The translations under genes were made by a program, and so were the position numbers. From Raja brachyura (lineage: Eukaryota), in the NCBI GenBank assembly GCA_963514005.1, contig OY740791.1, positions 52,390,001 through 52,454,000 on the forward strand: DNA of 64,000 bases. The letters are read 5' to 3'. Numbering within the stretch: the first letter of the stretch is position 1; the number at the start of each line of letters is the position of its first letter. Of the stretch, positions 9,770 through 56,016 are shown one piece after another. Below the pieces are notes generated by a model. That model had not been told where the DNA came from. It saw nothing but the letters and a program-made list of their open reading frames with translations, and searched no databases.

Positions 9770-12700
9770 AATTAGTAAGATTAAACGCAGACTTACCAGT
9801 TTGAAGTTTGATCTTGATTTTATGAGGAGTTATGTTGGTGAGTACGTGAAGAACCCCGTCTAGGCCACATGCGTGTCAATCTTCAAAGCAGCGGTATGAA
9901 ATCACAAATAACAATCACCGGTGACATAGTAAGATGTGTGACTTGAGAACTACCAGATGATCTTTATGAGAGAGGGTTGAGCGTGGCGGGCACGTAATCA
10001 CCAACGTCACTCCTCATAAAATCAAGATCAAACTTCAAACTGGTAAATTCTCATTTAATCTTACTATTTTACTTCGGAGTCACATGAGTGATCCCGTAAA
10101 GACTTCGAAGCTTTGTGATTTCATGCCACAGATCGAAATCTCAGCGTCTCACTGTATCGATTGACTCGGGTTGAGTGAATAATCAAAATGCATTAGCATG
10201 ATATTGATTCACATATATTAATGGTTTACGTTAATAAAGAAATCAATAGCAACCCCTGTAACTCAGGGGAGGCTAAAGTGGACACAAACAGAATGGGCAA
10301 ACCCCCAGGTCAGTAACCGGCCTATGGGGAAAAAAAAATTAAAAACAATTTAGTTGACCATCCTGCGGTCGCGAGGATATGGTCGCTGGGCATATCCATT
10401 GCCCTGGCCGCTGACGTTGACGCTGACCTGGTGGAATGAGATATACAATCGTCAGTGTTAATACCTGCAAAACCCAGAACCTGCTGCAGCCACCTTGAAG
10501 TAGTCTGTACCGACCTTCCTTTGTGCAGTTGTTTGGTGATTAATAAACAATGCTGAGTCCACACTTCTTGGGATTCTGGTGGCCTTGATAACATAACCGT
10601 GAGACCGTGGGATATCCGAAAAATGATCTTAAATCATGCTACCCCTGGTCTGCTCTGCTTGTGTAGACCAGAATGTAAAATGTAATGGCACCTGCAGCCA
10701 ATTTCATCTTATCGAGCCACAGCGTTTGCAATGTTTCCCGTCGTTGTGCTGATATTAGTGTCATAACTAAGGATGTAGCTGGAACATCCAGCTACATGTA
10801 GCTGGAACCCCTTGGTGAAGTAATGTTCACATATTTTCAATAACCAACAGCATAATCTTGTAGTGGGAGAACTTGTGTCAAGATCTTTTTAACAACTCGA
10901 TATCCGGGTTGAACCCGACAGAGTAGTTCCCTTTTGTTGCAGCTGTAGTGTCTCTATAACTGCATTATTGTCAAATACCATTTAAGAATGAACTGGAAAT
11001 TGTCAGTAATCTGTACCGTATTAAAAGTAACATTAACATTTAAACAAAATCACTTCTGATCCTCCTCAATAGGAATGTACTGATTTTTTGTGTGCTAATG
11101 CTGCACTCTGCATTGAGCACATTCAAGGCTTGATGTGATAACGTGAGGCATAAGTCAATCCATTCAAAATGTGTAAGTTAATAATTGTTTTATTGTGCAA
11201 AGGCCAGTCTCCTGAACCACAGTTTGACCCAAGTGAGGTCTTGCTGACTGTTTTAAGACCCGGCTAATGAGGCAAAAAATGGAGGAAAACATAAAAGAAC
11301 ATTCCTCCTTTTGTAGCGAGAATGTATTTCTCCGCACTGTTGTGCCACATATTTTTGCAATCGGTGAATAAACATGCACCAAAATGTTGATATGACTGGA
11401 TGATACACCAGTGGCAAAGGAGATTAGGTAATTATTACAGGATACTTTTACTTGATTGCCATGTGACTAACATATGTCACCATCGTAGAGTAGCAACTTG
11501 AATTTGAGCATGTAGAATAAGTATATTTGCGCAATAACCCCTTACCCATGGGGTGCATCTAGTGTATATATTTAGTTGATACCAACAATTGAAGAATTGG
11601 TAACTCGTGCAAATCTTCAATACCTCCAACTAGAGATGGTATTCAGAACTTCTCACCTTGGAGTCCTTAGCATCAGTTTGTAATAACTGAATTCAACCGA
11701 CCACACTACTGTAGCGAGGTTCAAGTTGAAGTTCAAATGAGGTTATTGTCATGTTCAGCAATGCTGAATACTGTTTTTTCATCATTGTGACTGAGGTATC
11801 TTCAGCTGACAATAGCATAAGGTTGTTAACAATGGTCTAATTGTCCTTTGAGAGGTTGCTACTTACACGATATCAGTTCTTTGATTTGCTCAGCTGAACC
11901 ACATCTGCTATATTGCCAATTACTCTTGATGAAAATAAAACTCAGTTTTATAACCGGTTGCTATAAACTCCAATCTCTTGCCACAGTGCGGAGTCAAAGC
12001 TAATCATAATTAAAGGTAAATCCCAATGACCAACGAACAGTTTATCCCATTCCGCAAAGCTTTACTGTTATTAGTACAATTATATTGTCTTTGATAACCT
12101 CTGTAATGGGATTTGCATAGCATGGATCTTTGACCCTTATGAATCTGTTGGTCAGGAAAAATAAGTTTTCATATTCGGAAAGTTCATATTCCAGACACTC
12201 TCCATTCTTCATAATAACATGCCACTCCTGCCTTATTCCATGGGTGGTTTGCATGAGAACTTTTGCCCAATTTCCGAACCTTAACTTTAAATAATAACCC
12301 TGGCCATAATCCAAACTTGCTTGGAATGCTACGATTGTGCCTCAACAAGATGTTTTTATCCTTTGTGTGTTGTACAAAACAAATGTAAATATTACAACTT
12401 GTGAATGGTGCACTACCCATATTTTGGAAGTGCTAGACCCATTTTGTTGAGTAGGGTTGGTAAGGTGCATGGAATTTCTGAGCTATCATGGTGCCCCCGG
12501 CTCCAGTGAACCGCTTACTGCCGATGAGCGCCTGGGGTGCATTCTGAAACGATGACTTTTGCCTGCCATTGGCCTAATTGATTTGTCTGCCAGGTTTTCT
12601 TCCCCTGTTGAATAGGCCTACCTGAATAACAGATTCAGCGGCTGGCTCTCACATCCCCCTGTTGGCGCTGTTCACTGCCGGCACATATGTGCTTTAGTAT

Positions 12701-14341
12701 GGTCTATTGACTTCTTTAGAGCCTGGAGTCAGTTATATCTTGACCTTTTGCTCTTCCCTCCTCAGAGAGGGCAATTCATAGGCAGCCCTTAACAGGTGCT
12801 GCCGCAGGATACCTATACTCATAAGAACCCATTGGAACTATACCCAAATAAAATATTCTGCTGGGATGGCAACTTTGTTGTCAGGAAAAGGTACCTCTGA
12901 CATGTGCCCTTCATCCCTTGGTGTATGCCCCATGGCCATACCCTGAGACTTAGTGGCAGCAGGATACTGACCCGTCTTGGTCTCTGCCTCCAAGAGCGAG
13001 ACCTGTAGCTGCTCTGTAACTGGAGCTGCTGGTGCAGCCTGTGGAGGTGGAACTTCTGTCTCACCCTACCATCAGAGTCATTGTCCGAACTAATCCTCAT
13101 CTATGAAGGTATTATCAAACAGTTCTCTACTAGATACTGCTGGTACCTTTTTTGTTCAGGATGGCGCTGACACTCCTCCTGTTGGCGTGTGCCCTGCTGT
13201 AGCACTGTATGCAACAGTTGCTGTATTTGGGATAGTCATTTCAAACGCACTATCCAGCCCCTGTGGGGAATCATCCCCCGATTTTGTGGGCCTTGCTATC
13301 CAGCCCCGGTGGAGAATCATCTCCCAAATCCGTGGGCATAGATTATGTGTGAACTTGAGCAACCCTGTCCCAGGCATTGCTGGCGCCACCTTTCGTAAAG
13401 GCCGGTGCTTTTTGACCTGAAACAGCCCTGTACCAGATGCAGCTAGCATGGCTCTCCCGTAGGCTGGTAATGTCACAAATGAAACAGCACTGTATCAGGC
13501 GCTGCTGGCACAGCTCTCCTGTAGGTTGGCACTTTCATACATGAAGCAGCCCTGTCAAGCGCTGCTGTAATGGCCTGTCCCATAGGCCCGCAATATTACA
13601 CATGAAACAGCCCTATCCCAGGCACTGCTGGCACGGCTGGTCCCATAGGCCCACGCTATTACAGTGTAAGCTCACTAAATCAACATTTTTAGTGTACAGC
13701 TTTACCTGTGAAGGGTTAAAACAATTCACATTAACTTGTGGTAAACAACAAATATTACATTGTCAGAGACATATGACAATAACTTTTTATGACTTTAACT
13801 TTGCCTTTAGCTTTTAACTTTAAGAAAAACACTAACACATAAATTTTATTATTAAGAGAAACCCTTTGTAGCCGACTAACCTGAGTCCAAATAGGGCTGA
13901 ATGAGTCCCATTTTATTCCTTGCCTGGGGACCAATGTCTGTGAGCCACTAACTGCACTGTCAGTGACTCTGGCATTATTTCCTTGCCGTTCCACGGCATC
14001 CCCGCAGGCTGGGAGCCGCTGATTGCCTTGTTAGTGGCCCCTTATCTCGCAACCCGATCTTTTTACCGGTTATCCGCTTCTGCGGTCGGACTGGGTTACC
14101 CCACAGTCCATAACCGGTACACCCGTCGGGCTGCGAAACTGGCAGGAAACCTCTGTGAAGAGAGGCTCCTGCCTGAAAAAACCTGGTAAGTAAAAACGAA
14201 CTTACCTCTACGTTTAACTTACCGCTGGCAGGAGCTCTGACCTGCCAGTCTGGTGTTTGCGCCAGTGCGGCTGACGTACTGACGCGCATGCGGCCTAGAC
14301 GGGGTTCTTCATAGAATCACTCACGTGACTCTGAAGTAAAA
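9770..14341 (-). mobile_element. DIRS-type retrotransposon, copy B, both termini intact, ORFs decayed
   Basis: ITR gaagaaccccgtctaggcc(a/g)catgcg at about 9848 and inverted at about 14285. ICR at 9991-10102. YR remnant SRWLQQVL..AGI..SHSTRSASTSAA..ILATAGWS (10322..10594). Methyltransferase remnant FCLISRVLKQ. No TSD. Confidence 0.92.
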
Positions 14342-17300
14342 TCGCTTGGGGACTCTCCTTTCACAGTTTGGCACAGAAGCATCAGATCCTGTTGAATCTG
14401 CCAAAGTGTTGTCACCCAGACACCTTGCCTGCTCACCACCTGCGTTGCAGCGTGCTGCCTCTGGAACTGGTCACCACCTCGGAAATGTCGTCTGGCCCTC
14501 CTGAATCAGTAGCTCTGGGTGGATTTTGGGCTACATCGTTTTGTGTGTCCGTGGACATGTACTTTTTGACACTCAATACATTTCTCTTGTAGATAACACC
14601 TTCAGGAGACTTGACTGTCACCATGCTGCCACTCCTCAATACAACATTGTATGGCTGGCAATGGTAAGGAGTGTCCATCTTATCGCCATCATCTTGCCTC
14701 ACAAGCACATCATCCCCAGGAATTATTTCAGAGTGCCTGGCTCATCGTTTCAAGTCAGCATATCATTTTGCCACACCTTTTTTTTTCGGCATCACAGTCT
14801 CTCAGCTCCTGGTATTCCTTGATCTCTCGTACTTGTGGCATTTTAGTGCAAATATTCCTTCCAAACAAAGCTTCTGCTGGATTTTTCCCTGTCGTTGAGT
14901 GAGTGACTGCCCTATATGCAGCTACGTATGCTAACAGTGACTCCTTCCAGTTTCTCCCTTCGGCTTGGGCGATTTGTATCCTCTTCCCTATGGACTTGTT
15001 TTGTCTCTCTACTTCTCCGTTAGTTTGTGGCTATTTCATAGTCACCTTCTGATGATGGATGCCTGTGATTCTCATGTATTCAGCAAACGTCTCAGAAGCA
15101 AACCGTGGTCCATTGTCCGAATACAATGTAACAGAAACCTGTGTCTGGAGAAGATCTCTGCTAATGCCTGTACAGTCTTTTCTGCTGTAGTTGACTTCAT
15201 CACTGCATACTCATAGCACCTACTATAGTAGTCTACCTGTTGGAAGTGGTCCAAGAAAGTCAACATTTATGTCAACCCATGGTCCTGTTGGCAACTTTGT
15301 ACTTCTAATTGATTATGGTCAGTTGCTCCTGCTCGTGATTTGACATCCGTGACAGGTCTTGACAAATTTTCCGGCCACCAACCTGGCCACCACATTTTGC
15401 TCCGCAAATTCTGTTTAGTATCGATGATGCCTAAATGTCCTTCATGAGCTAATGACACGATCCTTGGTTGTACTTCCTGCGGGATCACCAATCTACTACC
15501 TCTCAGCACAAACTGATCAATTACACAAAATTCATCTTTTATGGGAACATATGCTTTGTAAGGGCATTGATCCCATTGCCCACTCTGTATACACTCTCTG
15601 ATACCTTTGAGTTCAGGATCATTTCTGATTCCCTTTCAACATCCTTCGTTGTCACAGCTCCTGGTGTTGACTGAATTGCAACAAACCTTGTCGAATAAAT
15701 CACTTCCAGCGGTTTGTGATCTGTAACAAGGTCAAATTCAATGCGGTACAAGTATGCATGGAACCTTTCACAGGCCCACACTAGTCCCAGTGCTTCTTTC
15801 TCCATTTGAGAATACCTTCTCTCCACGCTGGTTAATGATTGACTGGCATGTGCTATGATTCCGAGTCCATCTGCATGTGTCTGTACCAACACTGCTCCTA
15901 ACCCGACTGGACTAGCATCTGCTATGACTTTTGTTGGTGCAGCTGGATCATGCTATCCAAGGGTTTCTGCACTCATTAGACTCAGTTTCAGTGATTTGAA
16001 TGCTTGTCTCTGTTCACTACCAAACAGGAACAGTACGACTTTCCTGGTCAACTTACTCAATGGATCTGCCAGTGTAGAAAAAATGTGAATACATTTTGCA
16101 GAATAATTGACCAGTCCTAGAAAACTCCTCATCTAGGTTGTATTCTGAGATTCACGTGCAACTGCAACAGCTTTCACTTTAGCTTTGGCTGGGTTCAGCC
16201 CTTCACTTGTGAGTCTGTGTCCCATGAAATCCATCTCAGAGACGCCAAACTTGAACTTGTCTTCATTCACAGTGAGACCCCCTTGACGTTTAGTCAACAC
16301 TAGCTTCAACCTCCTGTCATGCTCCTCACGACTTGATGCATGGACAATGATGTCGTCTGATATGTTTGCTACTCCTGGTGCACCTTGAATCACTCTGTGG
16401 ATTTTGTACTGATAGATCTCGGGGGCAGCATTGATTCCGAACATCAGTCTATTGTACCAGTACAATCCGCAGTGAGTGACAAATTTTGTCACCTCTCTTG
16501 ACTCTGGATGTAATTCCAACTGATGATATCCCCACTTGAGATCAATTTTGGAAACACTTTACTGGTTTACTGGAGTCTTGTAGCTCCTCATCAACTGTAA
16601 AAATTGTGTGTCTTTCTCTAATTATTGCCTCATTGGCTCTCCTCATGTCAGCACACAGTCTAATGCCATCATTGGGTTTCGGCACAATCACAACTTTTCC
16701 AACCCCTTGGAATATTGAATGAAATGCCTGCCTCATGTCATCATATGACTGCAATGAATTGACATGCACTCCTATGTGAAGCACTCCCAACTCTCGAGCT
16801 GTATTTCTACTCAGCAGAGGTTCTCCCTTCTCCTCTATCACCACAAATTCTGCTTCAGTTTCTCTATCTCCGACTTCTAATTTAGCCATGAAACATCCAA
16901 TGGTCTGTAATGGTTTAGTTGAGGTGTATGGATATAACTTCCTACTACACCCACTTGACGTGCACTTGATTTTCTGCTGCTTCAAGCATTCTCAAAGTGA
17001 TGTCAATTACGTTGCTGTCGCTACCAGAATCTACAATCACTGGCACTGTAACACCTCCGATGGTCACTGCAACTTTCTCGTGATGGCTATCATTCAATGC
17101 AAACTGATAATTCCTTTTAACAGCGTGCTCACCAGCTTCATCACTGTCTTCATCACCTTCTACATGACGGATAGGACCCTTTTTCTGCCAAGGTCTGTCT
17201 TTCTTTTCACTGGACTTCCCTTTCTTGTTGTAATCACTTGCCTTGTCCCTGGCCTTTTACATTTCTTTGCAAAATGATCTTCATCTCCACATTTCCTACA

Positions 17301-18067
17301 TGTTCAACCTTTTGCTGGACAACATGCATCGTTTCTTATGTGACCCTTGTTGCCACACTGTAACACTCAATCTCACTTTCAGGCATACTTCTTGGTCTAC
17401 CGTAGAACAGCTGGTTAACTTGCCTAGGCTTGCAATCTTTCAATTTCATGCTGTGAAATTATCCCTCAACAGCTTCCAGTGCTGCTGCAATCGACAAAGC
17501 ATCATTAAGGTTTAACTCAGCCGCTTTTTCTAGCAGCCTTTTCCTGAGCTTGTCTGACCTGCAATGCTGGACAAACTGATCCAATATCTAGATCTCCACA
17601 TCAGCAGCCACATTTTTGCATCCTGTCTGAATCTCGTCACAAATTGAGCAACAGTCTCTCCCTCTTCCTGCATTGTGTTATGGAATAAATTGTTGTAATG
17701 TAGCATTTGGCACCACCACATAATGACTGTTCAAAGCATCAATGGCTTTCTTATCGTCTTCCTTCATTCCGATATTAGGGAGTATTTTAAACGTTTCTCG
17801 AATTGCTGGCCCTGCAGTGAAAAGAAGCAATGCTCTCCGCTGCTTCTTCTGCCCTGAGCTAGGCTTCTCAAGAAAGAGCCCTCGACTGTTGGTGTGAGCT
17901 TCGAATTGCTCCAACGAAGCATTCCACCTCACGGTGACAGTACTGCATCACCCATCGAATCGAAGTGTGGAACTCGGTGAAGTGCTAAGAAATCAGCTCC
18001 ATTTAAAAATACTTTTTTTTCCAGCTCATAGCCATGGATTCAGAATCCAAAATATCCTCTTCGCCAA

Positions 18068-18272
18068 TGTCACATCCTGGCCTCAGATGTGGAATAATAA
18101 TGATACTGACACAATATTTATAGGTTACATTTCTTGGTCTCTGAGTTTATTATCTCACTCAGCCATGGCCTCCTCCCTAGGCTTACACAGTGGACATGCA
18201 TTCTGGCCTCCAAGTCAGCTGATACAAAGATCAGATATTTGCATATCATCATCATGACTCATCGTCATGACA
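18068..18272 (-). repeat. 5' LTR of the Gypsy element
   Basis: TG...CA ends, flanked by the PBS and the TSD ATGTC. Confidence 0.95.
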
Positions 18273-18277
18273 ATGTC

Positions 18278-18414
18278 CATGTTCTCTATGGGTGTGTCTC
18301 TTAAGTCCTCTCGTTGATGATCACTAAACAGTCCTGTCCGGCTTCTGACTGCCCCTCTGGGGGTGAGACAAGAAAAGATACTAGGTCAATTTATGTACAG
18401 TACCTAAATCCAAA
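18278..18414 (-). mobile_element. ERV pol segment (tether to RNase H junction)
   Basis: Joined across the Gypsy insertion it reads DLRDTPIENMDM|TLYVGGSS, matching the retroviral DLxDxP..xYxDGSS motif. Confidence 0.75.
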
Positions 18415-18729
18415 TTTCACTTCTGAGTCGCGTCAGTGATTCCGTGAAGAAGACCCGCCAGGCCGCATGCGCACCAGTACGTCAGCCGCATTGGCACAAG
18501 CACCAGACTGGCAGGACAGAGCTCCTGCCGGTGGCAATTTAAACCTAAAAGGTAAGTTCGTTTTTTTACTTACCAGGGGTTTTCAGGCAGGAGCCTCTTT
18601 TTACAGAGGTTTTTCCTGCCAGTTTTGCAGCCTGACGAGTTGCCGGTTATGGACTGCGGGGAAACCCCATTCCGACCGCAAATGCGGATAACCAGCAAAA
18701 TTGATCGGGTTGCGAGATAAGGAGCTGCT

Positions 18730-19030
18730 AACAGTGCAGTCAGCGGCTCCCAGCCTGCATGAATGCCGCAAAAATGGCAAGAAATTCGAGCAGAGTCGCT
18801 GACGGGGGGGGTCAGCGGCCCCCAGCATGCAGGAATGCAGTAAAAACGGCAAAAAATTTAAACAGAGTCGCTGACAGGTGGGTCAGCAGCTCCAAGCTTG
18901 TGAGGATGCCGTAGGAATGGCAAGAAATTCAAACAGTCGCTGACAGTGGAGTCAGCGGCTCCCAGCCTGTGGGGATGCCGTTGGAACAGCAAGGAAGCAA
19001 CGCTGGAGTCACTGACAGTGGGGTCAGTGG
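18730..19030 (+). repeat. Tandem repeat, about 66-68 bp unit x about 4.5, in the 5' region of DIRS copy C
   Basis: Repeated gtcgctgacag..gtcagcggctcccagcctg..gaatgccg...aatggcaagaaatt. Copy B carries only about one unit. Confidence 0.85.
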
Positions 19031-19309
19031 CTCAAACTGTTGGTCCCCAGGGAAGAAATTAAATGGGACTCATTCAGCCCTATTTGGACTCGGGTGAGTC
19101 GGGCTACAAAGGGTTTCTCCTTATTATAAAATGTATGTATTTTATAGTGTTTTTCTTGAAGTTAAAAGCTAAAGGCCAATTTAAAATCATAATGTTCTGA
19201 CAATATAATCCTTGTTGTTTAAGCACAAGTTGCTATCAATTATTTTTACCCTTCACAGGTAAAGCTGTACACTAAAAATGTTGATTTAGTGAGCTTACAC
19301 TGCAATAAC

Positions 19310-19600
19310 GCGGTCCTATGGGGCAGACCACGCAGCAGCGCCTGACAAGGCTGCTTCATGTATGAAAGTGCCGGCCTACGGGAGAGCCGTGCCAGCAGCA
19401 CCTGATACAGGGCTGTTTCATTTGTGACATTTCAGGCCTACGGGAGAGCCGTGCCAGCAGCGCCTGACAGGGCTGCTTCATGTGTGAAGTGCCGGCCTAT
19501 GGGAGAGCCATGCCCGCAGCGCCTGATGCAGGGCTGTTTGATGTCAAAAAGCACTGGCCTTTATGAAAGGCGGTGCCAGCAATGCCTGGGACAGGGTTGC
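19310..19600 (+). repeat. Tandem repeat, about 58-60 bp unit x about 5, in the DIRS gag region (also at 13370-13660 in copy B)
   Basis: Repeated ggcctacgggagagccgtgccagcagcgcctga..cagggctg.ttcat. Confidence 0.85.
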
Positions 19601-22600
19601 TCAAGTTCATACATAATCTGCTCACCCCCGGAGTCGGGAAATGATTCTCCATCGGGGCTGGAGAGCAAGGCCCACTGAGTTGGGGGATGAATTCCTCACC
19701 GGGGCTGGATAGTGCATTTGAAAAGACTATCCCAAATACAGCAACTGTTTCATTCAGTGCTGCAGTGGTCTCCCTCACGGAGGCAGAGACCAAGATGGGT
19801 CGGTATCCTGCTGACACTGAGTCTCAGGGTATGGCCATGGGGCATACCCCAAGGGATGAAGGGCACGTGTCAGAGGTACCTTTTCCTGACAACAAAGTTG
19901 CCATCCCAGTAGAATATTCTATTGGGTCAATGGGTTCGTATCAGTATTGGTATCCTGCGGCCTGCGGCAGCGCCTGTTAGGGTTGCCTACGAATCGCCCC
20001 ATCTGAGGAGGGAAGAGCAAAAGGTCAAGATGACTCCAGGCTCTAAAGATGTCAATAGAACATACTCAAGCACATATGTGCCGGCAGTGAACAACGCCAA
20101 CAGGGGGATGTGAGAGCCAACCGCTGAATCTGTTATTCAGGTAGTTCTATTCTACAGGTGAAGAAAGCCTGGCAGATGATTCAATTAGGCCAATGGCGGG
20201 CAAAAGTCATAGTTCAGAATGCACCCCAGGCACTCATCAGCTGTAGTGGTTCACTGGAGCTGGGGGCAGCATGATAGCTCAGAAATTCCATGCACCTTCC
20301 AATCATACTCAACTAAATGGGTCCAGCACTTCCACAATTTGGGTAGTGCACCATTCACAGGTTGTAATATTTACATTTGTTTTGTACAACACACAAAGTG
20401 TAAAAATATTTGGTTGAGGCACAGCCGGAACTTTCCAAGTAAGTTTGGATTATGGCCAGGGTTTGGAAATTGGGCAAAAGTTCTCATGCAAACCATCCAT
20501 GGAATAAGGCAGGAGTGGCATATGGAGAGTATCGGGCATATGAACTTTCCGAATATGAAAAGTTATTTTCCTGACTACAACAGATTCATAAGGTAAGAGA
20601 TACATGCTATACAAATCCCATTACAGAGGTTATCAAAGACAATATAACTGTACTATAACAGTAAAGCTTTGCAGTATGGGATAAACTGTTTGTTGGTCAT
20701 TGGGATTTACCTTCAATTATTATTAGCCTTGTCTCCGCCTTGTGGTAAGAGATTGGAGTTATAGCAATCTATTACAAAACTGAGTTATTTTCATCAAGAG
20801 TAATTAACAATATAGCGGCTGTTTCAGCCGAGCAAATCAAGGAACTGATATTGTGTAAGTAGCAATTAGATTATTCTTAACAACCTTATGCTATTGTCAG
20901 CTGAAGCTACCTCTGCCACAATGATGAAGTAACAGGATTCAGCATTGTTGAACATGACAATAACTCATTGAACATGAACTTGAAACTCGCTACAGTAGTG
21001 TGGTCGGTTGAATTCAGTTATTACAAACTGATGCTTAGGATGCTAAGATGAGAAGTTCCTTATACCATCACCTACTCGGAGGTATTGGAGATTGCATGAG
21101 TCACCAATTCTTCAGTTGTTGGTATCAACTAAATATATACACTAAATTCACCCATGAGTAAGGGGTTTTTGAGCAAATATACATATTCTACATGCTCAAA
21201 TTGAAGTTGCTACTCTACGATGGTGACATATGTTAGTCACATGGTAATCAAGTAAAAATATCCTGTAATTAATCTCCTTGCCACTGGTGTATCATCCAGT
21301 TCCGATCGATAGTAACACAGAATAAGTGTTGGATCTCAAAGTATGGTTGAATACTACATCGAATATCAACATGTTGGTGCATGTTTATTCACTGATTGCA
21401 AAAATATGTGGCACAACAGTGCGGAGAAATGCATTCTTGCTTCAATAGGAGGAATGGTCTTTTTTGTCTTCCTCATTTTTGCCTCATTAGCCGGGTCTTA
21501 AAACAGTCAGCAAGAGCTCGCTTGGGTTCGTACTATTGGACTGGCCAAGCGTCCATGTTGCCTGTTTCATCTGGCATTATGGCACAATGATATACGGTTA
21601 TGCCAAAAAACAAGAACTTGTTGTTCAAACTGTGGTTCAGGAGAGCAGCCTTTGCACAGTAAAACAATTATTGACACACATTTTGAATGGATTGACATGC
21701 CTCAGGTTGTCACATGAAGCCATGAAGGTGCTCACTGCAGTGTGCAGGGATAGCACCCAAAAAACCAGTACATTTCTATTGAGAGTATTAGAAGTGTCTT
21801 TTGTTAAGTCTTAATGTTACATTTAATACAGTGCAGATTACTGACGTTTTCCAGTTCATTTTAAATGGTATTTGACAATAATTCAGTTATAGAGACACCA
21901 CAGTGGCAAAATAAGGGAACTACGCTGTCGGGTTCAACCCGGATATTGAGTTGTTAAAAGATCTTGACACAAGTTCTCCCACTACAAGATTATGCAGTTG
22001 GTTATTGTAAATGTGTAAACATTACTTCACCAAGGTGTTCCAGCTACATCCTTAGTTATGACACTAATATCAGCACAGCGACGGCAAGCATTGCAAATGC
22101 TGTGGCTAGATAGGATGGAGTTGGCTGCAGGTGCCATTATATTTTACATTCTGGTCTACACAAGCAGAGTAGACTACGGGTGGCATGATTTAAGATCCTT
22201 TTGGATACCCCACGGTCTGACGTCTATGTTATCAAGGACACAGAATCCTAAGAAGTATGGAATCAGCATTGTTTATTAGTAAACAAACAACTACACTAAG
22301 GTAGGTCGCAGACTATTTCAAGGTGGCTGCAGCAGGTTCTGGATTATACTGGTATTAACACTGATGATTGTATGTCTTATTCCACCAGGTGAGCATCAAC
22401 GTCAGCATATCATTTAGATAGTGTGTTTACATCTCTTTCCACTAGGGCAGCAGCTATGTTGGTGGCCAAGGCAAGGGACATGCCCGTCGATCATATTTTG
22501 CTATTTTAAGTTCTGTTTAAAGTGCCCACGATAGAGGGGTACTGTTGTTTGTTATATATTTAAAATAAACTTTATTACTGCATTAAATGCAATGTTACTA

Positions 22601-23043
22601 CTAATGCATTAATTTCTTTTTCGAGTCGATCACTGCAATGGGATGCCGAGATTTGTAATCTGCGGCATGAAATCACAAAGCTTTGAAACCTTCACGGAAT
22701 CACTCACGTGACTCCGAAGTAAAATAGTGAGATTAAATGAGAACTTACCAGTTTGAAGTTTGATCTTGATTTTATGAGGAGCTAGATCCTTAGTTATGAG
22801 TTATGTTGGTGATTACGTGCCCGCCACGCCCAACCCTCTCTCATAAAGGATCATCTGGTAGTTCTCAAGTCACGCATCTTACTATGTCACTTCGGTGTTG
22901 TTATTTGTGATTTCATACCGCTGCTTTGAAGATTTAGTGCGCATGCGGCCTGGCGGGTCGTCTTCATGTAATCACCAACGTAAATCCTCATAAAATCAAG
23001 ATCAAACTTCAAACTGGTAAGTTCTTGTTTAATCTTACTATTT

Positions 23044-30810: not shown

Positions 30811-30826
30811 AGGTTCTTCATTTTTC

Positions 30827-31380: not shown

Positions 31381-31381
31381 T

Positions 31382-39600: not shown

Positions 39601-41771
39601 GATTTATGTCCTGATCCTCGTGGAGACACTTTTGAGATATTATTTTGTCGTGTAATTTCATCTTCCATTCTGGCACCTTGTTGCTTCGCACTTTCAACTG
39701 CTAAGCTCGTATGTTGTGGTATAATTTCAGATAACCACTCCTCTGCCTCCTTCATGAAACCATTAAATATCTTCACCCTGTCTTCCTCCCACTGGGTGTG
39801 TCTTATGCATTCTTCCCGAGATGGCTGTGAACACAGCAGTACATCTTGTTTCTTTCCAACCTCCTGGCAGAGGTTCAATAGTTGGCTCACATTAGATTTC
39901 ACCTTGATCACGTTCTGTTCTGATTCCATTAATTTATTCTGTTTCTCAATTATCCGGTAACCTGTTTCCATAATTTGTTTCTCTCTTTCTCGGTTTCTTT
40001 CAAATAGGCAGCTTGTAGCCTATCAATCAACTTGTTAACTTGTTCCCATATCGAGTTTTCCTCTTTCTTAGTTGACAGGTAGGCAGGTTGTCTCATTGGT
40101 CTTTCATCGCCACCTTGTGGTTCCTCTGGCATGGTTCTTTCGTCATCTTCTGGCTCCATGATTTTAAAAAGGTCTTGGCACTTCGCCAAGTCTTCTAATT
40201 AAACAAACAGAGTCTTCTCTGAATTTTGCTCCAACTTTATGTAAAGATCGAGTGGCTATTTTGAAAACAATTTCCTCAGAACCATAACAAACTGAGATTG
40301 TTGCCAACATCTCTCCAACATCCATGGGCTTACGAATGACAATAATTTCAAAGAAATGAGTGTTATCAAAAGTTCAAAACAATCTCCAAAGTCGGTCTCC
40401 TTTCTCCTAAAAAAACACTTTTAGGCTCTTCTACAGAAGCCGTTTAAATTTAAAGCTTGCAGCCTCAAAATTCAAAGAAATATAATCGGTTTTTACTCAC
40501 AATCCCTGTGATATTTTCTTCAGATAAGTCTCGATGCTGTTGATAGACCTCAAGACCTTCTCTGGTCAAGATCTAGTTTCTTCGGTTCCTCGGCTGGAAC
40601 CGGATTTCTGGTCAAAATCTCTCAGAGATCTTAGCCAAATCTTCTGTCCCACTCTCTGGTACTGGTATTCACCACTTGCCGGAGGTCTCCTTTGACTTAA
40701 TGTAGCGGCAGATTTATATATCGTTCAAGAGGTTACTCCCTCTAGCCGCTAAATGGACAGCATGGTTAAGGGGAATGTCTTTATACGCATGCAAGTTCAC
40801 CATCAGGGGCCTCCAGAGCTTCTTCACAGATAAGTCTTCAATACCCAGTCTTTTGATTAAAAAATTCTTTATTGTTGATGAAAAACAATAAGGTACATCC
40901 AAACTTCTTCTGACTCGTTACTATAATCTTCATCGAACTCCAGCTTATCGCTTTAAACGTTAGAAAACTCCTTGTGACTCTGTTACACTTCACATGGTCA
41001 AAGAGTGAACCTTCTCCATGCTGGTCCGAAACTAAAACTAACAACTAAGCTTCTGCGCAAACACACCCAAAAATACGTCATAAATCCCACCCACAATATA
41101 ACGGGTAGTCTAAAATTTAAAGACGCATGACATCATCAATGACGCACAAAACAAGCCAAATGGCCACTACAGACATATGTTAGAGACTATTAATATTAGG
41201 ATGATTTTACAATAAATATGTTATCTAGTCAGTATGGTGCTACAATTCTCATGTTTCATTATGAAACAGCAAACCATCAAAGTGCTGAAGTAACTCAGTG
41301 AATAAGGGAGCATCTCTGGAGAACATGGATAAGTGACATTTTGGGTCAGCACCCTTCTTTAGATGATCAGTGAGATTTTACCTATTGCTGCATGTCGTGG
41401 TTCCCCAATGTTGCCTAAGAATAAGATTGGAATATGGCACTTTGACAATTATTGAAATCCCCATCACATCAAAAATTAGTATGAACACAATTCAAAATGT
41501 TGATGATCAATTCTGCTGATCAGAATACATCAGTCTCCATTTGTTTTATATGGTTAACTAGAAGCAGGCTCGTGAACAGAAGTCTTACTCTGAGCTAATA
41601 TTTAGGAACTATGTGACTTTGAAGAACAATTAAAAGAATAAGTTAAATTATTATGTAGTTCACTCTGCCTTTGCCACTTGCTACTTTTATTTGACAGAGT
41701 GTTTAATGATTCATGTTTACTTGAACAACACTTGTAAAATCTCTGTTACATTTTAATTGTTTCCATGATAC

Positions 41772-44611: not shown

Positions 44612-44707
44612 CTTTATTCTTACACTTTTTAAAACACACCACCACTCCCACGATAATGATGAGCAGAACAGCCAAACATCTAATAATAAGAATATAGGTG
44701 TAGGTAT
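44612..44707 (-). CDS. CD4/LAG-3-like Ig receptor, coding exon 6 (TM, TYTYILIIRCLAVLLIIIVGVVVCFKKCKNK)
   Basis: 96 nt, acceptor ctcttttatcag, donor G|GTAAGA, phase 1-1; hydrophobic helix followed by a basic stop-transfer sequence. Confidence 0.85.
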
Positions 44708-48025: not shown

Positions 48026-48241
48026 GACCCTCTGACTCAAATATGATTAACGACATTTGAATAAATACTGATGCTATCATGCCCACAACAACCCAGGCTC
48101 GATTGTAACTAATTCTAAGTTTCTGCCCTGTAGAGTCTACCACACAGGATTGAAAGAGTCACTGCTGCCAAAAAGGACAATGATTGTCAAATTGCCTTAA
48201 CATGAACATAAATATAAAGAGAAAATATTTGCTTCACTTAC

Positions 48242-48502
48242 TACTGAATTCCAGATTGTAAGGGACTAAAATCTGGAGCCTTTCTTGTTGGAACAAACCA
48301 CATCTCCAGTTCCCTTTGCCTCTCTCAGCTTTCTGAATAACCAGACTCAGTGATTTATCTTCTCCATTGAGTGTCTTTTCTTCAACAGTTTTGCTGTCAA
48401 CATTGATCCAAACCAGTCTCACCAGTTCAGTGACGTGGGACACGGAGCAGGTCAAGATAACCTTGCCTCCCTCAGTCACTGTATCATTTGGCTCGGCTGT
48501 GA
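48242..48502 (-). CDS. CD4/LAG-3-like Ig receptor, coding exon 5 (D4, C2-type Ig)
   Basis: 261 nt, acceptor tttcttgttcccag, donor A|GTAAGT. VILTC..LVW..LSLVI..GNWRC carries the WxC F-strand typical of CD4-family C2 domains. Confidence 0.9.
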
Positions 48503-48630
48503 CTGGGAACAAGAAAAACATTTAGATTTTAAATATTATCTTTTAATTAATAACACAAGCAATGTTTTATCCAATAGCAAAATGCTGCTGGTGCTGGAAA
48601 TCGGTTGTTACACGACATTCTGTCTCCTAC

Positions 48631-48972
48631 CTTTTACTGTGATTAGTTTCATAGTTAAAAACTTATTTATGCCCAGAGTACAGGTGTAAACTCCTGCATC
48701 CTCGAACACCAAAGGGGAAATCCTCATCGTCAAATTATTGCCGTTAAATTCTGTCACTGAGGGCTCCAGTCGATTCGCAATGTGACTACTGGTGACAGTG
48801 ACGGGCTGAAACCTTACTGCCGTTGCTATTTCTTCGGTCAAACGTGGATGAAGATGTGATGTCCAGGACCAGGCAGCTTTGTTGTAATCTGTTGTAATAC
48901 TGTAACAAAGGAGGTTGAGTTCACTGCCATCTGTGCCTGTGCGATAAAGTGTGTAACTTTCTCTATATAAAG
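48631..48972 (-). CDS. CD4/LAG-3-like Ig receptor, coding exon 4 (D3, V-type Ig)
   Basis: 342 nt, acceptor tctcctgatgcag, donor G|GTAGGA. LNLLC..AAWSW..LTMRIS..EDAGVYTC. Confidence 0.9.
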
Positions 48973-51726
48973 CTGCATCAGGAGACAGAGAAGAAGACAT
49001 TTCACAGTTATTATTTAGGGGAAGGGCAGGTCAGGTCATGAGGACCTGATGTTGTTGTTGTTCCCCACAGCCATCAGGCTATTAAACACTACAACCTCCT
49101 AAATTATGAACTACAATAGACTATTATTATTATTATTATTGCACTGTTTTTGGTTTATTTTTGAGTTTTTACATTATTTATTATGATTACATATTCTGCT
49201 GTGCTGCAAATAAGAATTTCATTGTTCTATCTGGGACAAATGACAATAAAACACTTGACTCTTTACTTTTGATTTTGTGTGCCTCGACTCTTATCAGTCC
49301 AATCTGCAGCAACTGCAATCACTTCAAACAGCTGCAGGACTTGGTGATAAGGGTCACTGAGGGGAGAAGGGACGGATTGTTGTTCAGTGCTGATGTGAGC
49401 ACCGGGACCCCCAGTGTCTGTGTGAGCAGGAAGTGCTGATGACATGCTGACCCCTCTGTTTATGTAACACTTTGACATGGGTAACACTTTAATATTGATC
49501 TGAGGAGATGAAAGATTAGAGTAAGGAATCGTGTATATCCACAGTTTCAATTTCCTGTTAAAAGTCAATGCACAATTATATTTGAATGACCTGACAGAGT
49601 GGTCTGAATATTACCAGGACGGGAGGGTTTTAGTTGTACAGAGAGACAGGATAAGCTGAGCCTGTTCTCACTGGAGTAGGAGTTTGAGGGGTGTCCTCAC
49701 AGAGGTACTGTCAAGTCCAGTTTATTGTCATTAACTCTAGTACGGAGAGATATAGTTACAATGTCACCTTCTGAGGTAGCCTCCCACGAAGATATTTTCA
49801 CTGGTGGAGAGGGCTGTTCCTGTGATGGATTACACTGTCATGGGGGGCATAAATAAGGTGAATAGTCACATTATTTTTCTCAAGATAGCAGAGTCCAAAC
49901 CTAGATGCCTTAAGCTGCGAGGGGAAAGCATTAAAGGGGATCTGAACGACAGGTTTTTCCACTCAGAAAATGATGGGTATGTGGAATAAGATCACAGTGG
50001 AGGTATAGGGGTGAATAGGATTACCACATTAAAACATTTGTGTGATTATGGGTAGGAGAGGTTTGGAGGTATAAGCACCTTCTCCATGGGCTCTTATTTC
50101 CAGCATTGCTTTTACAATGGCTTTTAGTCACAGCCGAATGCACACTTTTTTTCAACCACATCTATTTTTGAATCAAATCATGTTACAGGGGCGGAGGGAA
50201 GAACAAGGTTGCGGAGCACAGAACCGCACTGGGTCGATGTCTCCATTGCTCCCACTTCTTCCCAGCCTCCCCCTCTGGATGTGAAATCAGTTTCAGGGTA
50301 ATTAGAAGGACAAGTTTCAGCTGTAGATTATTGGGTGAAGCAAACCTATTCTCAGGTTCCAGTTCAAGAGATTTAAAACAATCCAGAGTATATTTACCAT
50401 ATGCACCAGATATAATCCAGAACAATGATATAATTACTTGCTGCAGATTTACAGGCACGTTAGATGTAACAACAACAATAAATATATCATAAATTATCAG
50501 TTACTCTTAGTAAACAAGACCATGATAGTGCAAAGACTAAGGTATGTTGAGGAACCATTGTCATGCAGAGTCCACAGTAGTTAGCTGCTGTGGTTCGGTT
50601 ATGGTTGGGGTTGTGCGATGAGGTTCAAGAACCTGATGAGTGATGAGAAGAAAGTAAAAACATCTTTAGATATGTAAAAACATGATGGGTGATGAGAAGA
50701 AAGTAAAAGCTTCTTTACATATGTAAAAAGCAAAAGATTAGTGAAGGCAAATGTACGTCCCTTACAATCAGCCACAGGTGAATTTATAATGGGAAACAAG
50801 GAAATGGCAGATCAGTTAAATGAGTACCTTGGTTCTGTCTTCACAAAGGAAGACACAAACATTCCCCCAGAAATACTTGGGGACCGGGAATCTAGTGGGA
50901 GGGAGGAACTGAGGGAATCCACATTAGTTCTGAAATCGTGTTTGGTAAACTGTTGGGACTGAAGGCAGATAAATCCCCAGGGCCTGATGGTCTGCATCCC
51001 AGAGTACTCAAGGATGTGGCCCTGGAAATCATCAATGTATTGTTGATCATTTTTCAATGTTCTCTCCACTCTGGATCTGTCCCTGTGGACTGGAGTGTAG
51101 CCAAAGTAACTCCACTTTTTAAGAAAGGAGCGAGAGAGAAACCTGGGAATTCTAGACCAGTTACATCGGTAGTGGGGAAGATGCTAGAGTCAATTATTAA
51201 AGATATTATAACAGCGCATTTGGAAAGCAGTGACAGGGTCGGTCAAAGTTAGCATGGATTTATGAAGGGGAAATCATGCTTGACTAATCTTCTGGAATTT
51301 TTTGAGGATCTAACAAGTTGAATGGATAAGGGAGAGCCTGTGGACGTGATGTATCTGGACTTTCAGAAAAGCCTTTGACAATGTCCCACACAAGACATTA
51401 GTATGCAAACTTAGAGTACATGGTATTGGGGGTAGGGTATTGATATGGATAGAAAACTGGTTGGCAGACAGGAAGCAAATAGTAGGAATTAACGGGTCCT
51501 TTTTCAGAATGGCAGGCAGTGACTAGTGGGGGTGCCACAAGGCTCGGTGCTAGGACCCCAGTTATTTACAATATATATTAACGATTTAGACAAGGGAATT
51601 AAATGTAACATATCCAGGTTTGCAGATGACACAAAGCTGCGTGGCATTGTGAGCTGCAAGGATGCTATGAGGCTGCAGGGTGACTTTGATAGGTTGGGTG
51701 AGTGGGCAGATTGGCAGATGCAGTAT

Positions 51727-54700
51727 AATAGTAAGATTAAACAAGAACTTAACAGTTTGAAGTTTGATCGTTATTTTATGAGGAGTTACGATGAGGGATT
51801 ACGTGAAGAAGGCCGTCCCCACACATGCGCGTCAATCTTCAAAGTAGCGGTGTGAAATCACAGATAACAGTTGTTGAACTAACATAGTAAGATTATAGAT
51901 GACTAGAACTACCAGATGATCGTTAAGTTACGAGGGTAGGGAGCGGAGGGCACGTAATCCCTCATCGTAACTCCTCATAAAATAACGATCAAACTTCAAA
52001 CTGGTAAGTTCTCGTTTAATCTTACTATTTTACTTCGGAGTCATGTGAGTGACTACGTGAAGACTTTGAAGGTCTGTGATTTCATGCCGTGGAAAAACGA
52101 GTCCACACAATCACGACTGCATCAGTTGACCATAAATGTGGGAAACATCATAATGCATACATACATGACATAGGTTTAAAAAACATGCTGATGCTCATAA
52201 AGAACAAACAATAATAACAGTAACACCTCTCAACCGAGGGGAACTATAAATTGAACCTAAATATATTTGGCACACATCCCTGGTCTGGCAATGGGTTAAA
52301 ATAAATGTTGGATACCTCGTTTGTTAGACCATCCTGCAGTAGACAGTATGCTACTTGCTGCTTGTGTTGTAGCAGCGCTGGTGGAGTGAGAATAGAAATC
52401 AGTATCTACTCCTGTATAAGCCAATCCTCGCACCAGGGAATAACCTACCTATGAGAGCTGAACCAAAGATAGAGGTATAGCTGGAGCCCCAGAGTGAATA
52501 AATGTTAACACGATGTCAATATCCAATACTTCCATGTACTTGGGTCTGGAAGAACTTGTGTTAATGATATCCTAAATACTGGACACCAGATGGTGAAACC
52601 CAAGAGAGCGGGTCCCACTTGATGCAGCAACTATAGGGAGAAGCACGTTGGGTACAGTTAATGAGACTATAACTTAATTTATTGTCAACAACCCATAGAA
52701 AAGAACTCTAAGACGTCAGTGTCCGTGCCGTACTATATGTAACATAACATTTAACAGAAAAACACTTTCCATCTTCTGAAGAGGCAAAGTACTGCTTTTT
52801 TGGTTGCTATCCCTGCATACTGCAGTGAGACGTACATGGATCAGTCTGACAGCCTGCTCCGCAGGAGTGGTCTTCTCAGATTCTGTAAAGCAATTAATTG
52901 ATTAATCATGTAGAGGCTGGTTCCCCGAATCCCAGGCTGAACCAGCAAAGTTTTATGTTTAGAACCCCATAGAAGGTTCTATATTATTCCCAACATTTGC
53001 GGGAAACCATGGCTGTGTAGGCCAGTCAGACAGTCCGAGAAACCTGAATGCAGGATCTTGCTGAATATTGTAAGCCCCGACTGATGAGACAAAATGGAGA
53101 ACCACATAAAGGAACATTCCTCCCCTGTGTAGCGAGAATGAGACTGCATGCAAACATAACAATAGTGGGTGCCACAGAGCCATAGTTCCTAAAATGCTTC
53201 GTGATCCACCATCCATACTGTGTTATCATTGACTTTGCATGATGATACACCAACGCCAAAAAAGGTTGGGTAAATTATGACAGGATACTTTGACTTTATT
53301 GCATTCATGTGACTAACATATGCCACCACCACAGTGTATCAACTTGGAACTAAGCATGCAGGATTTGCATATTCGCACAATAACCCTTTAACCCATAGTA
53401 TACACCTCGTGTCTATAGGTAGTTAATACCAATAACTGAAGAATTGGTGATTCAGGCAAATTCCATCCGCCTTCGTTACTAGAGATGGCATTCGTGATTG
53501 TCCATCTTAGTTCTAGCATGTGTAAGTAATATAACTGAAGATAATATGACCAAACTACTGGAGCAATACAGAATGTAGTTTGACCATCATAGTGACCATA
53601 GTAGCTTCACCTGATAATAGCATAGGTTTGTTAACAATGACCTTTATGGCACTTGAGAGGTTAATACTTGCACGTTGAAAGTTCTAATGGTGCAAGACCC
53701 AATTGCACAGCTGCTGTAGCCAATTACCCTTAATAACTAGAAGCCAAGGTTGTTACAGGCTTCAATTAATTCCAATCTGTTGCCCCAGGGCGGAATCACA
53801 GGTAATTAATAGTTAAAGGTAAACCCGATAAACCACAACTACCAGTTGGTATCAACTTAAATTAGACTGGATGCCTAAGCAAAACACAGCATAAGAAATA
53901 TCCTCCAGACCAAATTGAAATGTCTCTGGTGACCTCCTGTGAATGGGTCCTAAACAGTATGCATCTATGAAACCGATGCATGCCATAAAAATCCTAAGTA
54001 AATAAGTAATTAGACAGTAGAGAAATTCCATATACTGAAAGCTATGTTGCACATGGGAGTAAATGAAATATGAACCGGCATCTCTCCATCTTTCACAAGG
54101 AACAAGCCACACCATAATTCCGTGCCTGCCTAGAATGCAGCTCTGGCCATACTACTGGCCTGCCTTAAAGCTGCTCCGTCATTCTGAGTCTGCCTCGAGG
54201 GAGAACTCTGGCCATATTACAGACTCTGGCCCCAATTTCAAGGCATGCTTTGTACCCTAGTATACTGTGTAATAATTACCCATCACATGTCAACATTTTC
54301 ATTTGTACCAAACAAGTATAAATATTACGAACTTGTAAATGGTGCACTTACCCCATGTTTCGAACGACCCAGACCCACCTACCTCCATGGCTACCGGTGG
54401 TCTAATGTTAAGCCCAAAGGACCGTGATGTGGGTTCCATTCCCATCCTTGATTTCCTTCCTGAGACCAGCTTGGCCCAGCTTTCAAGCGCCCATCAACTT
54501 CAGCGAACTGCTACTGCTGTTGATGGTTTCATTTGATCGCTCTGTGCACTGCCTGCACTTGTAGCATCAGGGAATCTGGCCCCTGCTGGGTTTTTTGCCT
54601 CTTCCCTTGTGAGTATGTCCTCGCACTCCCCTCCACTGAGAGGGGGAATCGTAGACAGCCCTGACAGGTGCTGCCGCAGGCCCCTGAGGATACCTGCGCT

Positions 54701-56016
54701 GACATGGCCCCTCGGCCCTATATCAGACAATATCAGAGTATGAGTCTGGGCCAGAGCGAAACTAACCCCTGGTGCTCCCCTCCTCAGAGAGGGAGACATT
54801 GTGCAGCCCTAACAGGTGCCGCTGCCTGCAGGTTATTCATAATACCCGGGCTCAGATAGCTCTCTACTGGAGCATATCTCTCTGGAGCAACCTCATTAGG
54901 TGCCTATTCCAGGTGGGTTTTTGACGTTTACAGAGGCTACCCATAGAAGGAGGGAGGAGGGGGGGGGGGGGGGCTCCTGGCCTGACTCGACCGAGTCCAA
55001 GGCCTGACCGGCTTCCTCGTGGTTTAACCCCTTTCCCTGGGGAACCATAGCGGTCTGTGAGTTGCTGACCCCATAGGTAATTATTTGGTCTTGAGTCCAG
55101 CTTACTGCCAGCTTTCCCCTTATTTAGAAAGACCTAAACGGTCTGGGAGCTGCTGACCCCCATTGTCAGCGACTGCAGTAGCATGACCAGCTTACTGCCA
55201 GTCTGACCGCTTTCTCTAGGAGGTCCTAAGCGATCTGGGGGTTGTTGACCCCAATGTCTGAGACTGGGGTAGTTAGACCTGCTTGCTGCCAGTCTAACCC
55301 CTATTTCTGGGGACCATAATGGTGTAGAAGCTACAGACCCCATAGTGAATGGCTGGGGTTGCAAGACCGACTTGGTGCCATTCTAACCCCTACTGCTAAC
55401 CCCCTTAACAGTGACTGGGGTAGTAAGACCGGCTGACTGCCAGTCTAACCCCTTCTCTGGGGAACCATTGTGATGTGGGAGCTGCAGACCCCATAATGAA
55501 TGGCTGGGGTTGCAAGACCGGCTGACTGCCAGTCCAACCCCAACTCTAGGGGACCCATGCGATGTGGGAGCACTAACCCCATTTAACAGTGCTGGGGTAG
55601 GAAGACCGGCAAACTGCCAGTCTAACCCCGTTCTCTGGGGGACCATAGCGGTCTGGGACCCATACTGGGAGAAACCCACTCGCATTTCCCTTCCGGGTGT
55701 CGCTGACCTCCTTGCCAGCAACTTGGGAGCGAACCCGACGGCCGCCGGCTATGTGCGATACCGCGGTCCGGACCGGGATTTACCGGTCCATAACCGGTTT
55801 CCCGCGGCCCGTCCAACTTCGCCCCGAATTCAGCAGGCAATCCTGCAAAACAAAACACATCCCTAGAAATAAGTGAAAACTTACCTACCAGGTTTAAAAC
55901 TTACCGCTAGCAGGAGCCGCACACCCACCAGTCAGTCCGTGGGCAACGCATCAGATGTAATGATGTGCGTGGGGGCAGCCTTCTTCACGGAGTCACTCAC
56001 GTGACTCCGAAGAAAA
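51727..56016 (-). mobile_element. DIRS-type retrotransposon, copy D (divergent subfamily), termini intact, ORFs decayed
   Basis: Terminal arm 51727-51805 is complementary to the ICR at 51951-52062. ITR gaagaagg..ccccacaca is inverted at about 55965-55989. Methyltransferase remnant FCLISRG..DWPTQPWFP (52959..53259). Confidence 0.9.
55030..55665. repeat. Tandem repeat, about 90-95 bp unit x about 6, in the 5' region of DIRS copy D
   Basis: Repeated actgccagtctaacccc..ggggaccat..gggagctgc.gacccca..gactggggt. Confidence 0.8.

What the first reader, a model, noticed from the sequence alone, without database searches (positions are those of the whole stretch)
9770..56016. Non-autonomous DIRS lineage that apparently kept transposing after its ORFs died
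Seen: four DIRS-type elements (A 1-2473, B 9770-14341, C 18415-23043, D 51727-56016; the complete ones are 4.3-4.6 kb) whose RT, RNase H, methyltransferase and YR survive only as scattered peptide remnants. B sits inside a Gypsy whose LTRs differ by only about 8% and whose pol is still readable. D sits inside a CR1 with near-continuous ORF2. B and C closely match each other across the scrambled RT region. Inference: an insert is younger than its host, so it should not be more decayed unless it was already non-coding when it moved. This points to long, coding-dead DIRS templates mobilised in trans, in about three subfamilies.
Basis: partly seen in the sequence, partly recalled or inferred. Interest (0 to 1): 0.8.

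Follow-up and report, generated by a model that had tools for sequence, protein, structure and literature searches.

The report
Gene-dead retrotransposon lineage swapping its ends
A family of full-size jumping elements lost its genes once, long ago, yet kept copying itself to over a thousand places by borrowing enzymes from intact relatives, and at least twice took over those relatives' end sequences.

Summary
Confirmed and extended. A, B, C and D are full-size (4.3-4.7 kb) DIRS1-like elements with short ITRs, an ICR and ATT ends. Their genome-wide copies share stop codons in all three frames: the longest frame free of shared stops is 108-138 codons, against 1050 + 333 in an equally diverged control DIRS family. 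All four carry one identical 65-nt frameshifting deletion, found exactly 1,057 times in the genome. The dead families form one clade and differ by 30-40% without codon bias. So coding was lost once, and the lineage transposed long afterwards. Coding families with the same termini exist.

C-type copies switch at a 57-nt duplicated seam to the 3' end of coding family F3, and A switches to that of F2. In both, the 5' ITR changed to match, as the Cappello model of DIRS replication predicts. The concept is known from plant LTR retrotransposons (wheat RLC_Angela); my 8 searches found no such report for DIRS1-like elements. Trans-mobilisation is inferred, not shown here. B and C are separate subfamilies; the LINE host's ORF is broken, not near-continuous.

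The parts
1..2472 (+). 3' part of element A (dead family A). The element starts upstream at G000:C11:52385031 and carries later inserts.
2116..2472 (+). 3' end of A (ICR, right ITR, extension), 92.7% identical to coding family F2 although the body is not: captured end
700..720 (+). junction of the lineage-wide 65-nt deletion in A
9770..14342 (-). element B (B-type subfamily), full-size coding-dead DIRS1-like element
9991..10102 (-). ICR of B, complementary to both termini
11396..11416 (-). junction of the 65-nt deletion in B
14280..14342 (-). left terminus / left ITR of B
9334..18270 (-). Gypsy host of B: LTRs 9334-9536 and 18068-18270, pol remnants 15270-17256
18414..23042 (+). element C (C-type subfamily): B-type body with F3-like 3' end and F3-like left ITR
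18414..18477 (+). left terminus of C; nt 36-64 of C-type copies match F3 (0.91), not B-type (0.69)
21279..21299 (+). junction of the 65-nt deletion in C
22405..22465 (+). recombination seam (approximate bounds): 57-nt block that repeats the YR HSTR-motif region in its F3 version
22690..22780 (+). ICR of C
51727..56018 (-). element D (dead family D)
51951..52063 (-). ICR of D
53238..53258 (-). junction of the 65-nt deletion in D
50703..56489 (+). 5'-truncated LINE host of D (50703-51729 and 56023-56489), split at an AAT/ATT trinucleotide

Best explanation
One DIRS1-like element lost its reading frames once but kept its cis parts (termini, ITRs, ICR, ATT junction). Its descendants kept being transcribed, reverse-transcribed and integrated by RT and tyrosine recombinase from coding DIRS families of the same genome. 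Through successive master copies they drifted 30-40% apart with no coding constraint and produced several bursts (D, B-type, C-type, A and others). At least twice a dead template acquired the 3' end of a coding family active at about the same time (C-type from an F3-like donor, A from an F2-like donor), most likely by template switching in reverse transcription. The left ITR was then rewritten from the new right ITR. SHOWN: shared closed frames, single origin, dispersed insertions at ATT, neutral divergence, mosaic ends, seam. INFERRED: supply in trans, which family was helper, template switching, ITR rewriting.
For: Shared stops in all frames: longest run free of them 124 (BC, 49 rows), 108 (D, 20), 138 (A, 21) codons, with 22-32 frame changes needed over 820-950 codons. 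B-type (19) and C-type (23) alone give 113 and 117; the antisense strand gives at most 119. Control family F4 (21 rows, same 91% pairwise identity): 1050 + 333 codons. 65-nt deletion at identical breakpoints, plus 18 smaller indels common to A, BC and D. Junction within 2 substitutions in 44/49, 20/20 and 20/21 dead rows, 0/21 F4 rows and 0/19 YR loci. 1,057 exact genome matches, 0 for the reversed control. Dead clade 100/100 in RT-RH and MT-YR trees. Dead-dead differences are even over codon positions (p 0.41-0.61), coding-coding differences third-position biased (p < 1e-17), and dead-coding comparisons keep the bias. AU tests reject dead monophyly for the 3' end (p 0.0007) and reject A+F2 (1e-8) and BC+F3 (5e-98) for the body. 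C-type: 116 of 119 informative sites B-like before the seam, 62 of 84 F3-like after; seam block in 23/23 C-type and 0/19 B-type rows. A: 67 of 99 D-like before, 31 of 39 F2-like after. 5' nt 36-64: C-type/F3 0.91 vs C-type/B-type 0.69, reversing to 0.60 vs 0.88 after nt 64; A/F2 0.87 vs A/D 0.57. ATT at 59/62 5' ends and 48/52 3' ends. DIRS-1 RT acts in trans and the ICR is essential in Dictyostelium (PMC7192593, passages).
Against: No direct evidence of trans activity, RNA or cDNA here. No very young dead copy was seen: the highest within-family identity is 96.6% apart from one probable segmental pair, so the lineage may now be inactive. Donor sampling is thin (F3 2 copies, F2 3, F5 1). C-type matches F3 at only 0.78-0.91 per bin after the seam, below the within-family level, and 15 of 84 post-seam sites are B-like, so the donor is a relative of the sampled F3. 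D shows no end swap. Copies were the best hits to window copies (30 of 40 scored for B, 20 of 40 for C, D, A and F4), not a random sample. Only 95 of 5,354 YR candidates were scored, so an unsampled coding family nested in the dead clade is not excluded outright, though the shared deletion argues against it. Some of the 18 small shared indels may be alignment artefacts.
Confidence: 0.85

Rival explanations
1. Ordinary decay: the copies were intact when they inserted and degraded afterwards.
For: F4 shows that old coding families leave copies with broken ORFs (longest 220-502 aa). The hosts are broken too.
Against: Stops are shared by the copies (160, 125 and 202 triplets are stops in at least 90% of rows). 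Copies lie only 4.5-6.8% apart within subfamilies but carry 57-79 family-fixed indels, mostly not multiples of three. The same method recovers open frames in F4.
Confidence: 0.01
2. Dead body confirmed, but the end similarity to F2/F3 comes from selection on cis signals or from DNA-level gene conversion between genomic copies, not from a swap during replication.
For: The termini are conserved among all families (0.75-0.95 in the last 370 nt). Ectopic conversion could move a patch into a later master.
Against: The F3-like tract includes the YR C-terminal stretch and the untranslated 3' region and begins at a sharp duplicated seam, which convergence cannot make. The 5' ITR changed with the 3' end although the two lie 4.5 kb apart in genomic DNA. 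That needs templating from the right ITR or a joined (circular) intermediate.
Confidence: 0.1
3. The dead elements move as DNA only: YR from coding families excises and reinserts or amplifies circles (Crypton-like), with no RNA step.
For: YR integration needs only the junction trinucleotide and ends (PMC3266345, passages). No RNA intermediate was shown here.
Against: High copy number (at least 1,057), retention of an ICR complementary to both ends, ITR co-replacement and the long master branch of A (0.36 substitutions/site against about 0.08 for its sister copies) all fit repeated reverse transcription better (inference).
Confidence: 0.04

Closest known systems
DIRS1-like retrotransposons (DIRS-1; vertebrate DIRS-like families) - PMC3266345 passages; PMC9210276 first fifth plus passages; PMC7192593 passages
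   Same: ITRs, an ICR complementary to both termini, NTT (here ATT) ends with no other target duplication, order gag-RT/RH-MT-YR.
   Different: The window elements encode nothing, and their templates encoded nothing. The ITRs are short (about 50 nt). In the coding relatives here gag-RT-RH-MT lie in one frame of 1028-1078 aa, followed by a 332-aa YR.
Non-autonomous RLC_Angela subfamilies of wheat (Copia) - PMC9744471, section 2.6 and passages
   Same: Near full-size elements with degenerate CDS, monophyletic internal domain, terminal-repeat tree discordant with the body tree, switch to new autonomous partners.
   Different: Angela is an LTR/integrase element of plants, over 85% identical to its partners. 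Here it is a YR element of an animal, the body is only about 45-65% identical to any sampled coding family, and a base-level seam and 5' ITR co-replacement are visible.
LTR swapping in soybean (Du et al. 2010; title seen only in the reference list of PMC5491270) and non-autonomous rice pararetrovirus fossils (PMC5491270, passages)
   Same: Non-autonomous partners keep regulatory ends matched to autonomous partners by recombination.
   Different: Different element orders. DIRS ends are inverted and ICR-templated, so the swap has a different geometry.
TOC1 of Chlamydomonas, called a non-autonomous DIRS retrotransposon (PMC9940879, passage)
   Same: Non-autonomous member of the DIRS order.
   Different: From recall (no call): TOC1 has split direct repeats (PAT-like), not ITR/ICR ends, and is not a frameshift-riddled full-size copy of its partner. 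The passage reports no end swapping.

Membership tests
DIRS1-like superfamily | inverted terminal repeats | tested here: met
   B 52 nt 81%, C 44 nt 89%, D 34 nt 82%
DIRS1-like superfamily | ICR complementary to both termini, overlapping at a 3-nt junction | tested here: met
   B, C, D: 60-84 nt to the 3' end, 36-38 nt to the 5' end
DIRS1-like superfamily | NTT trinucleotide ends, no further target-site duplication | tested here: met
   ATT at 59/62 and 48/52 ends; D splits its host at AAT; B at AAT with 8 host bases lost
DIRS1-like superfamily | descent from gag-RT/RH-MT and YR genes in this order | tested here: met
   remnants by tblastn and alignment to coding relatives; relatives hit RVT_1, Phage_integrase and, weakly, Dam
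Autonomous DIRS1-like element | open RT and YR frames in the source template | tested here: not met
   shared stops in all frames; control met
Non-autonomous retrotransposon | amplified after loss of coding capacity | tested here: met
   shared lesions, 62 distinct flanks, 1,057 junction matches
Non-autonomous retrotransposon | an autonomous partner with matching ends exists | tested here: met
   F1 and F2 copies with open frames and the same termini
Non-autonomous retrotransposon | mobilised by the partner's proteins through an RNA intermediate | not testable with these tools
   inferred; in-trans action reported for Dictyostelium DIRS-1 (PMC7192593)
Ngaro/PAT-like (split direct repeats) | split direct repeats | tested here: not met
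   terminal repeats are inverted; no A1/A2-B1/B2 direct pairs among the repeats listed
CR1 clade (host of D) | RT phylogeny within CR1 | not tested

The most novel reading that the evidence does not exclude
A single gene-dead DIRS lineage has survived across several related species and through the turnover of many coding families by repeatedly capturing the 3' cis module of whichever family was active. Its natural recombinants record in genomic DNA the step of the Cappello model in which the left ITR is rebuilt from the right ITR, and its master lineage gives an unselected readout of DIRS reverse-transcription error.
Probability: 0.55. Interest if true: 0.72.

Novelty: new variant of a known kind. 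Interest (0 to 1): 0.57.

Why it matters
It extends the parasite-of-a-parasite pattern known from plant LTR elements to tyrosine-recombinase retrotransposons in an animal, at a scale of over a thousand 4.5-kb copies that protein-based annotation would miss or misdate as ancient. It defines what DIRS needs in cis. It also offers natural recombinants for a replication step (restoring the left ITR) that PMC7192593 presents as part of a proposed model. It also warns that ORF decay is not a measure of insertion age.

Tried and rejected
Pfam on 113 ORF fragments of the four elements: no relevant hit. Dam family search of the genome: 0 matches among 150 scored of 8,154 candidates; uninformative, since the intact ORF itself scores under the cut-off.

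Segmental duplication of B/C: rejected (different flanks). D does have a true segmental duplicate, which was dropped from the D alignment. Open frame on the antisense strand or within B-type or C-type alone: rejected. Long-branch attraction as the cause of the dead clade: made unlikely by shared indels. An end swap in D: not found.

Expression: no RNA holder listed on record. Contigs of runs X1, X5, X6 and X7 (four studies, four organism codes) cover 30 of 30 bins of B; this shows presence in other organisms only and nothing on expression. Earlier-findings look-ups returned nothing. The atlas search only confirmed the YR family.

Paper searches listed no title or abstract start on full-size coding-dead DIRS1-like lineages or DIRS end swapping. 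Subscription journals and Repbase are not covered; from recall, Repbase may hold non-autonomous DIRS entries. No supplement was opened; those of PMC9210276 (families with degenerate ORFs) may bear on novelty.
Full report
Setting. The window is G000:C11:52390001-52454000 of a 2.7-Gb genome in 1,647 contigs. It is CpG-depleted and dense in repeats, with LINE, Gypsy and Ig-domain Pfam hits.

Observation. B (about 9770-14342, minus), C (18414-23042, plus) and D (51727-56018, minus) have DIRS1-type ends: short inverted repeats and an ICR complementary to both termini. A ends at 2472 and begins upstream of the window; it is complete but interrupted by about 3.2 kb of inserts. None of 113 ORF fragments hit a relevant Pfam family. 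A genome search with the YR family scored 95 of 5,354 candidates and found many open 332-aa frames. Nineteen of those loci were fetched with flanks. They fall into eight families, F1-F8, and whole copies are mostly 4.7-4.9 kb. F1 and F2 have copies with a 1028-1078-aa ORF plus YR and are 97-99% alike within family. Their proteins find MT and YR remnants in B, C and D and a weak trace in A. Dead and coding families share the same terminal sequences.

Nesting. B lies in a Gypsy whose LTRs differ by 6.4% substitutions; 9 of 9 other copies are empty at that site. B's nearest relatives differ from it by 5.0-5.1%, which fits insertion about as late as, or later than, the host. D splits a LINE at an AAT; 18 of 18 other copies lack DIRS there. 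The host differs from its best relatives by 8.8-12.1%, D from its own by 5.2% and more. The host is readable but has 5 stops and at least 3 frame changes in about 500 codons, so 'near-continuous' is too strong.

Were the templates dead? I aligned best-hit copies: 47 loci plus B and C (L001 is B itself; L026 and L027 dropped as duplicates of L084 and L081), 19 loci plus D (L086 dropped as a segmental duplicate), and 20 loci plus A. I then counted triplets that are stops in at least 60% of rows. All three frames are closed. The longest runs free of shared stops are 124, 108 and 138 codons, and 25, 22 and 32 frame changes are needed over 947, 821 and 916 codons. B-type and C-type alone, and the antisense strand, give the same picture. 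The control F4 (20 loci plus L062; 91% pairwise, as in BC) gives runs of 1050 and 333 codons although no single copy exceeds 502 aa. Flanks are all different (62 of 62) and the ends are ATT in 59 of 62 and 48 of 52 cases. The templates were therefore non-coding when they moved.

One origin, long life. In an alignment of 26 representatives the three dead families form one clade (100/100) in both RT-RH and MT-YR. They share a 65-nt deletion with identical breakpoints and 18 smaller indels, some possibly alignment artefacts. Each family has 57-79 fixed indels against the coding families, 12-14 of them multiples of three. All four window elements carry the deletion junction. A 21-letter junction pattern matches 1,057 places exactly, against 0 for the reversed control. 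This is a lower bound: only 34/49, 13/20 and 1/21 of held rows match exactly. Eight further matches all fall in the dead clade and reveal more subfamilies. Differences between dead families (30-40%) are spread evenly over codon positions (p 0.41-0.61). Differences between coding families are strongly third-position biased, and dead-versus-coding comparisons retain the bias, so the alignment preserves the signal. Within subfamilies copies differ by only 4.5-6.8%. Most of the divergence thus arose in successive non-coding masters. Contigs from four runs with four organism codes cover all 30 bins of B, so relatives hold the family too.

Swapped ends. The 3'-end tree disagrees with the body tree: A joins F2 and BC joins F3 (100/99 each). 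AU tests reject dead monophyly for the end (p 0.0007) and reject A+F2 and BC+F3 for the body; these groups were named after I had seen the trees. All 23 C-type rows and none of 19 B-type rows carry a 51-57-nt block that repeats the HSTR region of YR in its F3 version. Before it 116 of 119 informative sites are B-like; after it 62 of 84 are F3-like and 15 B-like. Seven BC rows lacked this region and were left out. Because C-type has both versions of the motif and F3 only one, F3 or a close relative was the donor. A changes from D-like (67 of 99 sites) to F2-like (31 of 39) just upstream of the ICR; its direction is less certain, as there is no seam. An older capture from an F5-like family is suggested for B-type and L179-L181 (80-84% over about 1 kb), on one F5 copy only. 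D shows no swap. The far end changed too: nt 36-64, the part of the left ITR not covered by the ICR, is 0.91 identical between C-type and F3 but 0.69 between C-type and B-type, and after nt 64 this reverses (0.60 and 0.88). For A the values are 0.87 to F2 and 0.57 to D.

Mechanism. In the Cappello model as summarised in PMC7192593 (passages), the transcript lacks most of the left repeat, which is rebuilt from the right repeat, and the ICR then restores the extreme ends. That paper shows that the ICR is essential and that RT acts in trans. A template switch that brings in a new 3' end would then convert the left ITR automatically, which is what C-type and A show. Exchange between circular intermediates, where the two ends are contiguous, would give the same pattern and is not excluded. 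Integration at a matching trinucleotide (PMC3266345, passages) fits the ATT ends. The two sampled F3 copies (92.5% alike) are about as diverged as C-type (6.6%). The three F2 copies (96.6-98.7%) are somewhat younger than A (4.5%), but were chosen for open frames. Trans-mobilisation itself is inferred.

Comparison and novelty. The closest parallel is the non-autonomous RLC_Angela of wheat: full-size, degenerate, monophyletic, with a discordant LTR tree and partner switches (PMC9744471 section 2.6). LTR swapping in soybean is cited in PMC5491270 (reference title). A non-autonomous DIRS-order element, TOC1, is known (PMC9940879). Xenopus DIRS families with degenerate ORFs are listed in PMC9210276, and the passages I saw do not treat them as non-autonomous lineages. 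PMC8498967 (passages) has no such case in what was shown. Eight searches listed no report of this for DIRS1-like elements; the library omits subscription journals and Repbase.

Verdict: real, well supported, a new variant of a known kind, interest 0.57.

Noticed in passing
window 49205-56796 vs G000:C11:52364795-52372390 (L147, L086): D, its LINE host and flanks are duplicated 74.4 kb upstream at 99.7-99.9% identity: a recent tandem duplication or an uncollapsed haplotype.
   Followed up: partly
window 48237-48521, 48611-49030, 56988-57317 (minus): Ig-domain exons (V-set, Ig_3) flank the D/LINE insertion; probably an immunoglobulin-superfamily gene whose intron holds D.
   Followed up: no
window 33815-34292 and 40712-41174: An 87% direct repeat pair, LTR-like, encloses minus-strand ORFs of 164-292 aa (37487-40019) with no Pfam hit and a LINE insert at 34575-36644.
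   Followed up: partly
window 23466-26156 and 27088-30830 (minus): Two LINE copies with endonuclease and RT domains, one with an open 897-aa frame.
   Followed up: no
window 13418-13663, 18727-19033, 19333-19560, 55097-55658: Family-specific minisatellites (62, 72, about 90 nt) occupy the former 5' gag region of the dead families; A has similar repeats.
   Followed up: no
about nt 120-150 of all families (e.g. window 14195-14225, minus): Two GGTAAG splice-donor-like motifs are kept in dead and coding families alike where the surrounding sequence diverges; possibly a cis requirement.
   Followed up: no
L046, L048, L050, L065 and one search list: Family F1 has many 98-99% identical copies with a 332-aa YR frame, i.e. 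recent activity; gag-RT-RH-MT lie in one long frame.
   Followed up: partly
family A (L106-L125): A has the youngest copies but by far the longest master branch (0.36 substitutions/site), and its YR-end region groups with D while its MT region groups with BC: probably a further recombinant.
   Followed up: partly
window 15685 and 16695: The Gypsy host lacks two stretches of about 170 nt present in its relatives, and 8 bases at the B junction.
   Followed up: no
L018 and L025 (G000:C12, 148 kb apart): 99.6% identical BC copies, probably a segmental duplicate; both stayed in the 49-row alignment.
   Followed up: no
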